IMG/VR virus record: IMGVR_UViG_2718218399_000002
DNA length: 39,647 nucleotides
Origin: a virus
Taxonomy: Duplodnaviria; Heunggongvirae; Uroviricota; Caudoviricetes
Reading direction: 5' to 3' (one strand)
Position numbers: made by a program. Shown in pieces: positions 1-3,000 of the stretch. The number at the start of each line of letters is the position of its first letter. The first letter of the stretch is position 1.

Positions 1-3000
1 TGACGTTCTCCGAAAATACCAAGTTTAATAAGGGCAATTCGGGAAAGAATGGAATTATCATTGAGCAGATAAGGCTCATATTTCCGCATATTAATGGCAT
101 CCTCAGTAAACGCTTTATTACTGAGCAGAACACCAATATCAAAACAACCTTCAGACGTATTAACGTTTGGTAATAACGTTTCCATTATCGCGTCCTCAAC
201 AATGAATTTTGTGATGCAGTGCCTGGTGCCTCCAGGTGACGTTAACCAGTTAACAATTAACGTCGGGTTAGTTGATGCTCGTTACGCCAGTAAAAGACCG
301 CCTTACTGCTTTAACTGTTCCGCGTGCGCATAGCCGCATTCACCGCATCACAAAATTCACTTTAAAAAGGGCGGATATCCATTTCCGCCGAATCACCAGA
401 AAAGTGATAACAGAGGTTGTTGTGGCTGGGGTGTCACTTAAGCGTATGGTCAACCTGACAACCCGGTGTCCTCAACGGGGGAAGGAATAACCCCGCCATA
501 CTTACCGCCGCGCCATTTCGCGGATTGCCACAACCAGAAGCGCACGGTCGAATTAAATTTAACGACGACCTATACAGAGAGACTAACTTCGCCGTGCGCT
601 TTCGTGTTATGCCCTGACTTTTCAGGGTAAATTAACCTGTGGAAACCTGTTTTTACTGGCGCTAATCAGTTAGCGTTTCTTGCTAACCAGCGATGCGCGC
701 CAGCTTCGGTTTTAAACGTTTTACTTCTGGTATACGTCATCGCGGTAAACGTGCCGTCGTGGTTGGGGAATACTCCGCACACCAGAGATTCATTGTTGCC
801 AAGATTGAGCATATCCATGTTGACCTCATTTACCCTTAACGCCGGGTCGCGGAACTAAAAACCTGCTGCGCTGTTATACAAAGTGTTCCCGCCGTCATGT
901 TCATACGCCTCGGGCTGGCTACTTAACCCCTGACCACTGCCGGGTAACTCGAGGTATTGCCCGACGTTCTGTGGGGCGAGGTAGGGTGGTATGTAATAAA
1001 TCTAAAAGTATTTAGTTTTTCAGTCAAGGTAAATCTAGATTAATTTAAAAAAAAGGTCGGCATTGCCGACCTCAAGTAAAGGACGTGGCGGGTTATAAGT
1101 TGAACTGTACACCTTTTGCTACGGCAACAATTTTACACTCTGGTGTAAGTAAGGATGACTGATAGCGTGGATTGAGAGGGCTTAAATACACAAGCTTCCC
1201 ATCAATAACTAATTTCTTTATAGTCATAGATGGTTCATTTTTAAGCGGATCCGGAACTATTACAGCGACGATGCTGCCATTTTTATAACTTTCTCCTGGC
1301 CTTAGGATCACAGTAGCACCAACTGGGATACTCGGTGATCCTGATGGGTTATGCATTGTGTCATCAGGCATTGAAACGGCAAAATCACCTTCCTCGACAT
1401 CAAAGAATGTGGTGATTCTATCGACATTTCCCATTGTTTTCTCTCCTTTTAAGATTAGGAAAGAAATCGCCTCACCCCACGAAAGGTAGGGGATCTTGGT
1501 GCCTGAGGTACTTTGTACAAAAGATAATTCAGGAGACGATACTCCATATAGGAGATAGGACTCAGTAGTTCCTAATGCCTGGGCTAACTTACTTAGAGCT
1601 TTGCTACCTGGTTCGTTTAGATCTTTCTCCCAGTACCCTATAGTAACCCCAGTCACGCCTGAAAGCTTACCCAGTTCTACTTGGGTCAGCCCCTTATCTT
1701 TTCTAAGTCTCTTAAGCCTGAAGCCAAGGCTTTCCATCATTTTCTCCTGCAAATTGAATATAAATTATTTTAGATTGCATTGACCTAAAAAAAATTATCT
1801 TGTAATCTAAAAATACTTAGATTTGGGAGGTAAAATGCGAGTTGATGAACTTGTCCAGTTTTTTGGTTCTGTTCAGAGGGTTGCCGATTTTTATGGGATA
1901 ACCCGCGAAGCTATTTACATGTGGCGTAAGCGTCCTGGTGAAATAGTTCCGAAGGGGAGGGCTGCGGAAGCTGCTGCATACTCCAAGGGGAAATTATCTT
2001 TGAACCCAGAACTTTACAAAAAGAAGGATACCACTCAGGGCGAAGGAAAGGGGGATTCATGAAAATCAAACATGAGCACATCCGCATGGCGATCAATGCC
2101 TGGGCCTATCCGGACGGTGAGAAAGTTCCTGCAGCTGAAATAGCCCGGACTTATTTCGAGCTGGGGATGACGTTCCCGGAACTGTACGACGACAGCCATC
2201 CGGAAGCCCTGGCTCGTAATACCCAGAAAATTTTCCGTTGGCTGGATAAAGACACCCCTGATGCTGTTGAAAAAATTCAGGCTCTGTTACCGGCGATCGA
2301 AAAGGCAATGCCGCCTCTGCTGGTGGCCCGTATGCGCAGTCACAGCTCTGAATATTACCGTGAGATCGTCGAACGGAGGGATCGGCTGGTGAAAGATGTG
2401 GATGATTTTGTCGCAGCGGCGATCGCCTGGGGCACCCTGACTAACAGTGGTGGTCAGCCTGGTAATGCTGTTGTCGTGCATTGACCAACAATATTCATGC
2501 CGGATTTCTTCCGGATGTTCGAGGGTAAAGTTCGGTATCAGATGAGGTGAGTATGGCTAATGCCTGGCTCAGATTGTGGCATGACATGCCAAATGATCCC
2601 AAATGGCGAACCATTGCCAGGGTCTCAGGACAGCCAATCGCAACAGTGATGGCGGTGTATATCCACCTTCTGGTGAGTGCGTCACGAAATGTCACGACAT
2701 GTCACGGCGTGTCACTACGTGGTCACATTGATGTCACGACGGAAGATTTAGCAAGTGCGCTTGATGTGACGGAAGACGTGATTGATTCAATTTTGCATGC
2801 AATGCAGGGGCGAGTTCTGGATGGTGATCTTATTTCCGGATGGGAAAAACGCCAGGTGATGAAGGAGGATAACGGTAATGTTTCGCAAACCGCAAAATCC
2901 CCGGCAGAGCGCAAGAGAGCGCAGCGGGAGCGGGAAAGACTGCGGAAGCAGAACACTGATTGTCACGATGAGTCACGACGCGTCACGCATATGTCACGAC

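What the first reader, a model, noticed from the sequence alone, without database searches (positions are those of the whole stretch)
260..1045. No N-like antiterminator gene left of the repressor; only two short ORFs
Operator-like sites flank the repressor on both sides, so a leftward early promoter is expected near 1000-1045. The next ~750 bp on the minus strand contain only a 22-codon and a 50-codon ORF, and nothing resembling an arginine-rich N protein. The early-left region may be degraded or organised differently from lambda.
Basis: partly seen in the sequence, partly recalled or inferred. Interest (0 to 1): 0.4.

Follow-up and report, generated by a model that had tools for sequence, protein, structure and literature searches.

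The report
N-less dicBF-type early-left phage operon
The stretch left of the prophage repressor lacks a lambda-style N gene because it is the known Qin/Rac "dicBF"-type early-left operon: a long conserved leader, one tiny gene, a DicF-like small RNA and the cell-division inhibitor gene dicB, so it is mostly ordinary.

Summary
Operator palindromes flank the repressor, a leftward promoter sits at 999-1027, ORFs of 22 and 50 codons follow, and no frame resembles N, Kil or SieB. Lambda N, run as a positive control, is detected by the same libraries.

The region is organised differently from lambda, but it is not degraded. It is the head of a dicBF-type early-left operon, as in E. coli K-12 Qin and Rac. 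The window is 100% identical to an E. coli O157:H7 prophage next to tRNA-Ser/mtfA. Order on the minus strand:
- PL/OL
- a 174-nt leader
- a DUF1391 (YdfA/YdaF) gene
- the structured DicF precursor
- a DicF-like sRNA: conserved seed, shortened terminator hairpin, missed by Rfam
- an RNase III-type spacer
- dicB

ydfB and ydfC are absent, but this layout is the commonest among related viral contigs.

The 22-codon ORF is not a conserved gene. In most relatives its start codon is in frame with ydfA.

One point is unexplained. The leader core starts at the predicted +1 behind about 11 unrelated operator/promoter types. It is as constrained as ydfA's non-synonymous sites. It is not an HK022 put relative, and its function is unknown.

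The parts
1093..1737 (-). Prophage repressor (CI-like, HTH_3 + Peptidase_S24, LexA family). This is the context for the finding.
   Evidence: ORF list. Pfam HTH_3 at 2e-12 and Peptidase_S24 at 5e-11. RefSeq calls it 'LexA family protein' in the identical O157:H7 locus.
1053..1073 (-). Intrinsic terminator at the end of the repressor gene.
   Evidence: 9-bp stem, 6 of them G-C, followed by a T-run.
999..1027 (-). PL-like promoter (-35 TTGACT 1027-1022, -10 TAGATT 1004-999), overlapped by the left operator palindrome at 999-1018. The predicted start is about 992.
   Evidence: Promoter scan. Operator pattern with 1 mismatch. The start position is inferred, not mapped.
819..992 (-). 174-nt leader of the early-left transcript. 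It has a C-rich 5' end (992-970), a strongly conserved core (969-888), a variable segment (887-853) and the ydfA translation-initiation region with the hairpin CCCGGCGUUAAGGG (852-819).
   Evidence: Homology starts at the predicted +1 behind about 11 unrelated promoter/operator types. Nucleotide diversity is 0.050 in the core, against 0.56 in the promoter and 0.176 at ydfA third codon positions. The leader is also present in K-12 Rac. There is no Rfam hit and no put-model hit.
836..904 (-). 22-codon upstream ORF. The SD GAGG lies at 911-908. The start conserved among relatives is the second AUG, at 898-896. It is not a conserved peptide gene.
   Evidence: ORF list. Among 111 unique haplotypes the ORF from the conserved AUG runs 4 to 100 codons. 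In 70 of them it is in frame with ydfA. The first AUG is AAG in most relatives.
666..818 (-). DUF1391 gene (YdfA/YdaF family, 50 aa), the first gene of the operon.
631..675 (-). Junction where the ~500 bp carrying ydfB and ydfC in K-12 Qin and phage 689R5 are absent.
   Evidence: The BLAST blocks break between window 675 and 630. The same junction occurs in L009, L011, L015, L025 and L086.
403..560 (-). Structured RNA upstream of DicF. It corresponds to the 5' part of the 190-nt RNase III-generated DicF precursor of K-12.
   Evidence: Nearly identical to K-12 while the flanks are about 82% identical. Precursor biology comes from Ragunathan et al. 2023 bioRxiv. The 381-nt fold has z = -3.5.
365..402 (-). 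DicF-like sRNA. The seed UUUCUGGUGA is conserved. The terminator hairpin GGCGG-AAAUGGAUAU-CCGCC plus U-run is 17 nt shorter than in K-12, with two further bases missing between seed and hairpin (19 nt in all).
   Evidence: Alignment A1. Terminator scan. Fold. The Rfam DicF model scores K-12 at 76.7 bits but gives no hit here.
186..364 (-). dicF-dicB spacer. A long stem (about 21 bp predicted) encloses two adjacent hairpins (262-236 and 234-220). It is an RNase III-type processing region ending just 5' of the dicB SD.
   Evidence: 15-nt inverted repeat. Fold. Weak STnc100 similarity at 29.5 bits, below the gathering score of 47. A homologous spacer precedes kilR in K-12 Rac.
1..185 (-). dicB (cell-division inhibitor). 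61 of 62 codons are present; the gene runs off the window end.
   Evidence: Pfam DicB at 118.8 bits. RefSeq annotation of the identical locus.

Best explanation
Window 1-1045 (minus strand) is the promoter-proximal part of a dicBF-type early-left operon of a Qin/Rac-like lambdoid prophage. This class has no N gene at the head of the left operon.

Shown here:
- A CI-like, LexA-family repressor with matching operator palindromes on both sides.
- A consensus-like leftward promoter overlapped by the left operator.
- A DUF1391 gene, a DicF-like sRNA with its own intrinsic terminator, and dicB.
- In the identical O157:H7 locus these are followed by ydfD-like, exonuclease VIII-like, DUF4224 and integrase genes.

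Inferred by homology with K-12 Qin:
- When the repressor is inactivated, PL fires and DUF1391 is translated.
- RNase III and RNase E cut the structured untranslated stretch and release DicF species.
- Part of transcription stops at the DicF terminator. The read-through fraction expresses dicB and the recombination and integration genes.

No phage protein antiterminator is needed to describe this layout, and none is encoded in the early regions scanned. The 22-codon ORF is a variable upstream ORF or orphaned N-terminal extension of the DUF1391 gene.

The conserved leader core is a cis-acting element of unknown role. My best guess is control of initiation at the conserved SD/AUG, or of transcript fate (stability, Rho access).
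For: - Identity: the window is 100% identical to an O157:H7 chromosome region annotated int - DUF4224 - exonuclease - DUF1482 - dicB - DUF1391 - LexA-family - Cro/CI - YdaT - O - P ... Q.
- Homology: there are homology blocks with K-12 Qin dicBF and with phage 689R5.
- Protein families: Pfam DUF1391 and DicB.
- Regulatory sites: operators, promoter and terminators.
- DicF: the seed is conserved in alignment A1. The precursor and spacer are strongly structured.
- Published Qin biology: operon ydfABC-dicF-dicB-ydfD, RNase E/III processing and termination at DicF (PMC5069750; bioRxiv 10.1101/2023.04.14.536235).
- Frequency: the architecture is common in viral contigs and deposited phage genomes.
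- No N: nothing N-like in any frame or elsewhere in the early regions, with a working positive control.
Against: - Nothing here was measured. The transcription start, processing and read-through are all inferred.
- The DicF copy differs from the characterised one and fails the Rfam model, so its activity is assumed from the seed alone.
- ydfB and ydfC, part of the canonical operon, are missing.
- Intrinsic terminators lie inside both early operons: DicF's at 389-370 and one at 7241-7258(+) before Q. A phage of this type may therefore need an antitermination device that I did not identify.
- Phages of the mEp collection are reported as Nus-dependent (PMC11893012). mEp460 was not named in the text I read.
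Confidence: 0.85

Rival explanations
1. This is a degraded lambda-type early-left region. An N gene and nutL once lay here and were lost by deletion or frameshifts in a decaying prophage.
For: - ydfB and ydfC are absent relative to K-12 Qin and phage 689R5.
- A one-base shorter C-run splits the upstream ORF from ydfA.
- An IS3-family element lies elsewhere in the window.
Against: - No N, Kil or SieB signal in any frame with stops masked, while lambda N is detected by the same libraries.
- The same N-less layout occurs in more than 100 distinct viral contigs and in deposited phage genomes.
- The ydfB/ydfC-less junction is a recurrent haplotype.
- The leader, the DicF precursor and the spacer are under strong constraint rather than decaying.
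Confidence: 0.04
2. The conserved leader core (about 969-888) is a cis-acting RNA that makes RNA polymerase termination-resistant. It would be a functional analogue of HK022 putL, or a Nus-factor loading site, and would replace N on the left operon.
For: - It starts at the predicted +1 of PL behind about 11 unrelated immunity regions, which is where putL and nutL sit.
- Core diversity is 0.050 against 0.176 at ydfA third codon positions.
- An intrinsic terminator (DicF's) lies upstream of dicB, exonuclease and int.
- It is linked to several different downstream gene sets.
Against: - A covariance model of put recovers putR copies it was not trained on (55-56 bits) but scores 8.1 bits or less anywhere in window 1-12000 with filters off, and nothing in the leader.
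- No boxA.
- Only one copy per contig, and none on the PR side.
- K-12 Qin, the Salmonella copies and about a quarter of the dicB-linked loci lack the core yet keep the DicF terminator.
- Covariation is inconclusive.
Confidence: 0.12
3. The leader core is a translational or stability operator. A long imperfect hairpin pairs CYUCG (954-950) with the SD region YGAGG (912-908) of the conserved upstream AUG. This would gate ribosome loading, and thereby Rho or RNase access, at the head of the operon.
For: - RNAalifold predicts this hairpin. 99% of cells are paired, and all seven variable pair positions change only by pair-preserving transitions.
- The SD GAGG and AUG ACG GC are almost invariant, while the ORF behind them varies from 4 to 100 codons.
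Against: - No compensatory double changes in that hairpin, and the shuffle controls are not exceeded.
- A competing local hairpin (965-960 with 944-939) carries the only double change, G:C to A:U, in one clade.
- The single-sequence fold is no better than shuffles (z = 0.05 to 1.7).
Confidence: 0.3
4. The DUF1391 protein is itself the early antiterminator. It would be an unrecognised N analogue acting on the leader RNA.
For: - It is the first gene after PL in about 90% of leader-bearing loci.
- It is small and of unknown function, and is preceded by a long conserved leader, as N is.
Against: - No arginine-rich motif and no match to the N families.
- It is predicted to fold as a compact beta-hairpin plus helix (pLDDT 77.7), unlike disordered N.
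- The pPE4-type loci have the leader without DUF1391.
- K-12 Qin and the Salmonella copies have DUF1391 without the leader core.
- There is no second leader copy to act as a right-hand site.
Confidence: 0.04

Closest known systems
dicBF operon of the Qin cryptic prophage, E. coli K-12 (ydfA-ydfB-ydfC-dicF-dicB-ydfD)
   Same: - A repressor-controlled promoter comes first, followed by DUF1391.
- A long untranslated stretch holds the DicF precursor and DicF with its terminator.
- The same spacer follows, then dicB, ydfD and an exonuclease.
- Identity over dicB to pre-DicF is 82%, and near 100% in the precursor core.
   Different: - No ydfB or ydfC.
- The DicF terminator hairpin is 17 nt shorter and is not recognised by Rfam.
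- The repressor is an S24-peptidase CI type, not DicA.
- A long conserved leader is present that K-12 Qin lacks.
Early-left region of the Rac prophage, E. coli K-12 (racR - ydaG - ydaF - sieB - KilS - kilR)
   Same: - The same long leader, nearly identical in the core.
- A DUF1391 gene.
- An sRNA with terminator followed by the homologous spacer, in front of an FtsZ inhibitor gene.
   Different: - Rac has ydaG inserted between leader and ydaF.
- Rac has sieB on the opposite strand.
- Rac has KilS in place of DicF and kilR in place of dicB.
Lambda PL - nutL - N
   Same: The position is the same: first transcribed element and first gene to the left of the repressor, under OL/PL control, with a long leader.
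   Different: No N36/ARM protein, no boxA, and no second (right-hand) copy of the element.
HK022 putL/putR antiterminator RNAs
   Same: A conserved non-coding element beginning at or near +1 of PL in a lambdoid phage that lacks N.
   Different: No sequence or structure similarity: a put covariance model scores 8.1 bits or less. Only one copy is present. The size and predicted fold differ.

Membership tests
dicBF-type early-left operon (Qin) | A repressor-controlled promoter immediately upstream of the first gene. | tested here: met
   Operator palindrome at 999-1018 overlapping the -10 of a 9/12 sigma-70 match. Function is inferred.
dicBF-type early-left operon (Qin) | First gene encodes a DUF1391 (YdfA) protein. 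| tested here: met
   PF07151 at 98.8 bits, cut-off 27.3.
dicBF-type early-left operon (Qin) | ydfB and ydfC lie between ydfA and dicF. | tested here: not met
   About 500 bp are absent between window 675 and 630. tblastn finds YdfB/YdfC in other loci but not in loci of the window's type.
dicBF-type early-left operon (Qin) | dicB lies downstream of dicF. | tested here: met
   PF05358 DicB at 118.8 bits for window 3-185, minus strand.
DicF sRNA (Rfam RF00039) | Scores at or above the family gathering score. | tested here: not met
   No DicF hit at E up to 10 on window 340-600. The K-12 copy scores 76.7 bits in the same kind of search.
DicF sRNA (Rfam RF00039) | 5' seed UUUCUGGUGA, a Rho-independent terminator, and a syntenic position between the precursor RNA and the dicB spacer. 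| tested here: met
   Alignment A1, terminator scan and fold.
Lambda N antiterminators | A protein with an N-terminal arginine-rich motif that matches N-family profiles. | tested here: not met
   No match in the three masked minus-strand frames of 186-1092 or in the early-right ORFs tested. The positive control works.
Lambda N antiterminators | nut site (boxA plus boxB) on the early transcripts. | tested here: not met
   No boxA-like match on the minus strand of 186-1000 or on the plus strand of 1813-2600. The window-wide count equals chance. boxB was not searched separately.
HK022 put RNAs | Matches the put sequence/structure profile (stem I with pseudoknot, stem II, conserved GGCGGGYUCAGG..GARCGGCAAU). 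| tested here: not met
   Model R1 finds untrained putR copies at 54.7-56 bits. The best score in window 1-12000 with filters off is 8.1 bits (E 0.46), and it is not in the leader.
HK022 put RNAs | Promotes terminator read-through in cis and is blocked by rpoC zinc-binding-domain mutations. | not testable with these tools
   Needs reporter assays.
STnc100 (Rfam RF02076), for the dicF-dicB spacer | Scores at or above the gathering score of 47 bits. | tested here: not met
   29.5 bits, E 5e-4, at 153-371 on the minus strand. A full member lies at 10958-11130.

The most novel reading that the evidence does not exclude
The roughly 80-105-nt leader core is a new kind of cis-acting RNA that governs elongation of early-left transcription in N-less lambdoid phages. 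It would act by processive antitermination or by blocking Rho, without a dedicated phage protein, and it is unrelated in sequence to HK022 put. It begins at +1 of PL behind at least 11 unrelated immunity regions, including K-12 Rac.
Probability: 0.12. Interest if true: 0.75.

Novelty: new member of a known kind. Interest (0 to 1): 0.3.

Why it matters
The absence of N here is ordinary. A large class of E. coli lambdoid prophages (Qin, Rac and many O157:H7 prophages) starts its left operon with DUF1391 and a cell-division-inhibitor module instead of N. Recognising this prevents such regions from being mis-scored as decayed.

Two by-products may be useful.
- O157:H7 carries a DicF-like copy with an intact seed that Rfam-based annotation misses. 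This could matter for DicF dosage studies in EHEC.
- The long, tightly conserved PL leader is present in K-12 Rac, so it is experimentally accessible. It is an uncharacterised element at the position where lambda has nutL and HK022 has putL. How these N-less phages pass the terminators inside their early operons did not emerge from the papers I could read.

Tried and rejected
- Rfam at gathering and at E up to 10 over 1-1900 and 340-600: nothing for the leader or for the DicF copy.
- Eyeball similarity of the leader and of pre-DicF to putL/putR (GAACG, GUCGGG, GGUCAGG): rejected by the put covariance model with positive controls and by BLAST.
- N, Kil and SieB by HMM on ORFs and on stop-masked frames: negative.
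- boxA scan: chance level.
- Covariation tests of two leader structures: both are compatible, neither exceeds the controls convincingly, and the only double change is a single-clade event.
- Salmonella DUF1391 loci were fetched to add divergence, but they carry only the short leader.
- King et al. 2011 (put-like RNAs, PMC3187212) is not held. One literature search on putL/putR was swamped by unrelated terms.
- PHROG families 19140, 8854 and 37620, which match the leader and pre-DicF translations, look like over-called ORFs on conserved non-coding sequence. The leader frame has no start codon downstream of the predicted +1 until near its end.
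Full report
**What is at the coordinates.** The window opens inside a lambdoid immunity region.
- The repressor gene (1093-1737, minus strand) has an HTH_3 and a Peptidase_S24 domain.
- It ends in an intrinsic terminator at 1073-1053.
- To its right lie a cro-like gene, a CII/YdaT-like gene, and O- and P-like genes.
- The palindrome AATCTAA-N6-TTAGATT occurs with 1 mismatch or fewer at 999-1018, 1757-1776 and 1804-1823. About 0.9 sites are expected by chance in the whole window even with 3 mismatches allowed.
- The left copy overlaps the -10 of a leftward sigma-70-like promoter (-35 at 1027-1022, -10 at 1004-999).
- The 22-codon (836-904) and 50-codon (666-818) ORFs exist.

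The mechanical ORF list does hold six further ORFs of 20-37 aa on that strand.

**No N, with a control.**
- The ORFs, and all three minus-strand frames of 186-1092 with stops masked, match only DUF1391 and unknown-function PHROGs.
The libraries would therefore have seen a relative.
- The hypothetical ORFs of the early-right operon have no N-like match.
- A scan for arginine-rich N-termini over 1-13 kb finds only short, unannotated ORFs, several of them inside annotated genes.
- The only antiterminator is Q-like, at 9035-9724.
- No boxA-like sequence lies on either early transcript.

**What it is.**
- The first 1100 bases are 100% identical to E. coli O157:H7 chromosomes. 288 records are 99% or more identical.
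- In strain TR01 the prophage sits beside tRNA-Ser and mtfA. Leftward from the repressor it reads DUF1391, dicB, DUF1482 (ydfD-like), exonuclease, DUF4224 and integrase.
- The best phage match, vB_EcoS-689R5, and K-12 Qin align in two blocks that break between window 675 and 630. About 500 bp holding ydfB and ydfC are missing from the window.
- Window 3-185 (minus) is DicB at 118.8 bits, and the 50-codon ORF is DUF1391 at 98.8 bits.

**The RNA part.**
- Alignment with K-12 shows the DicF seed UUUCUGGUGA intact. The terminator hairpin is replaced by a shorter one (GGCGG AAAUGGAUAU CCGCC plus U-run).
- Rfam's DicF model scores the K-12 copy at 76.7 bits but reports nothing here.
- An Rfam-based ncRNA table for EDL933 lists four DicF copies. 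None lies near the sok and STnc100 entries whose 4.1-kb spacing matches this window, which I take to be this prophage.
- The ~150 nt upstream of DicF are almost identical to K-12, while the flanks are about 82% identical. This fits the 190-nt DicF precursor, whose 5' end is made by RNase III and which RNase E trims to 53 nt (bioRxiv 10.1101/2023.04.14.536235).
- Between the DicF terminator and dicB, a long stem (15-nt perfect inverted repeat, about 21 bp predicted) encloses two adjacent hairpins. The 381-nt fold has z = -3.5.
- This spacer is a sub-threshold relative of STnc100 (29.5 bits here, 34.1 in K-12).
- The same spacer precedes kilR after the sRNA KilS in K-12 Rac.

**Is it degraded?** No.
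- Eighty dicB-anchored viral contigs show a mosaic of the same modules.
- Among about 130 leader-bearing stretches, the order YdfA > dicF > DicB > YdfD without ydfB/ydfC is the commonest, with 45 cases. The Qin order has 30.
- Deposited phage genomes Tritos and mEp460 have N-less left operons of this type.

**The 22-codon ORF.**
- Its first AUG is AAG in most relatives.
- A second AUG (898-896), preceded by GAGG (911-908), is nearly invariant.
- From that AUG the ORF is 4 to 100 codons long among 111 unique haplotypes.
- In 70 of them it is in frame with ydfA and gives a 76-78-aa product.
- The window has a C-run one base shorter (846-844), which ends the ORF at UAA 838-836.
- The extended protein still matches only DUF1391 and PHROG 751.

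**The unexplained element.**
- I aligned 300 nt upstream of ydfA from the dicB-anchored loci. The promoter/operator DNA falls into about 11 unrelated types, yet homology starts abruptly at the predicted +1 (CAUACCA...).
- In this set, which was collected without reference to the leader, nucleotide diversity is as follows:

| Segment | Diversity |
|---|---|
| Promoter | 0.56 |
| Leader +1..+23 | 0.17 |
| Leader +24..+105 (core) | 0.050 |
| Leader +106..+140 | 0.14 |
| ydfA codon position 1 | 0.063 |
| ydfA codon position 2 | 0.071 |
| ydfA codon position 3 | 0.176 |

- A larger set gave similar figures but was biased by the search pattern.
- The core occurs once per contig.
- It precedes several different gene sets, including Kil without DUF1391 in the pPE4 type.
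- It is present in K-12 Rac.
- It is absent from K-12 Qin, from two Salmonella loci and from about a quarter of the dicB-linked loci.
- It has no in-frame start codon after +1 and no Rfam match.

**Test against put.**
- I built a covariance model from HK022 putL and putR and six putL-like sequences from other phages.
- It found putR copies it was not trained on, in UPF_BP1 and phiEt88, at 56 and 54.7 bits.
- Nothing in window 1-12000 scored above 8.1 bits with filters off.
- The leader is not a put-family member.

**Leader structure.**
- A long hairpin that pairs 954-950 with the SD region 912-908 is 99% paired, with only pair-preserving single changes.
- A competing local hairpin has the single G:C to A:U double change, confined to one clade.
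- Neither exceeds the shuffle controls convincingly.
- I leave the structure and the function open.

**DUF1391.**
- The family is narrow: 240 clusters, those listed being from Escherichia, Shigella and Salmonella.
- It is not N-like, but its role is unknown.

**Verdict.** The finding is real and largely explained: a known N-less operon type in a published O157:H7 prophage. Three residual points remain of interest.
- The unannotated DicF variant.
- The conserved PL leader.
- How early transcription passes the DicF terminator and the terminator at 7241-7258 before Q without N.

Noticed in passing
window 10958-11130 (+), with a terminator at 11155-11173: A full STnc100 match (100.8 bits) is followed by a strong intrinsic terminator. 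It lies downstream of the Q-like gene (9035-9724) and three tRNA genes (9938-10184). It looks like the short promoter-proximal RNA of the late operon.
   Followed up: partly
window 186-364 (-); L216 2260-2400 (-): The dicF-dicB spacer (long stem plus two adjacent hairpins, motif CACCUGGAGGCACCAGGCAC) is a weak STnc100 relative. It also follows the sRNA KilS upstream of kilR in K-12 Rac. This suggests a conserved module of sRNA with terminator, spacer, and FtsZ-inhibitor gene.
   Followed up: partly
window 7241-7258 (+): A strong intrinsic terminator (AACCCGCTTCGGCGGGTT plus T-run) lies just after hokD/sok, between PR and the Q gene. With no N or put in the prophage, how rightward transcription reaches Q is unexplained.
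   Followed up: no
window 833-846 (-); L217 1465-1490: The small hairpin CCCGGCGUUAAGGG, just 5' of the ydfA Shine-Dalgarno, is kept in short-leader and long-leader loci. In a Salmonella locus it appears as CCGC...GCGG, a compensatory change.
   Followed up: partly
L087 3660-3980 (Actinobacillus phage vB_Apl-pPE4, PP818812): A phage recorded as infecting Actinobacillus carries an E. coli-like left arm. It has a divergent copy of the leader, no DUF1391, two tandem copies of a DicF-like repeat, then kil. The same leader variant recurs in IMG/VR contigs.
   Followed up: partly
window 14012-14128 (-): An ALIL pseudoknot (121.5 bits) marks the frameshift site of an IS3-family transposase, so an insertion sequence lies in the late region of the prophage.
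   Followed up: no
window about 2680-3000 (+): Repeated GTCACG/ATGTCACGAC motifs lie inside the O-like replication gene. They look like origin iterons.
   Followed up: no
window 6848-7022 (+): A sok antitoxin RNA (114.9 bits) lies next to hokD: a type I toxin-antitoxin module in the nin-like region.
   Followed up: no
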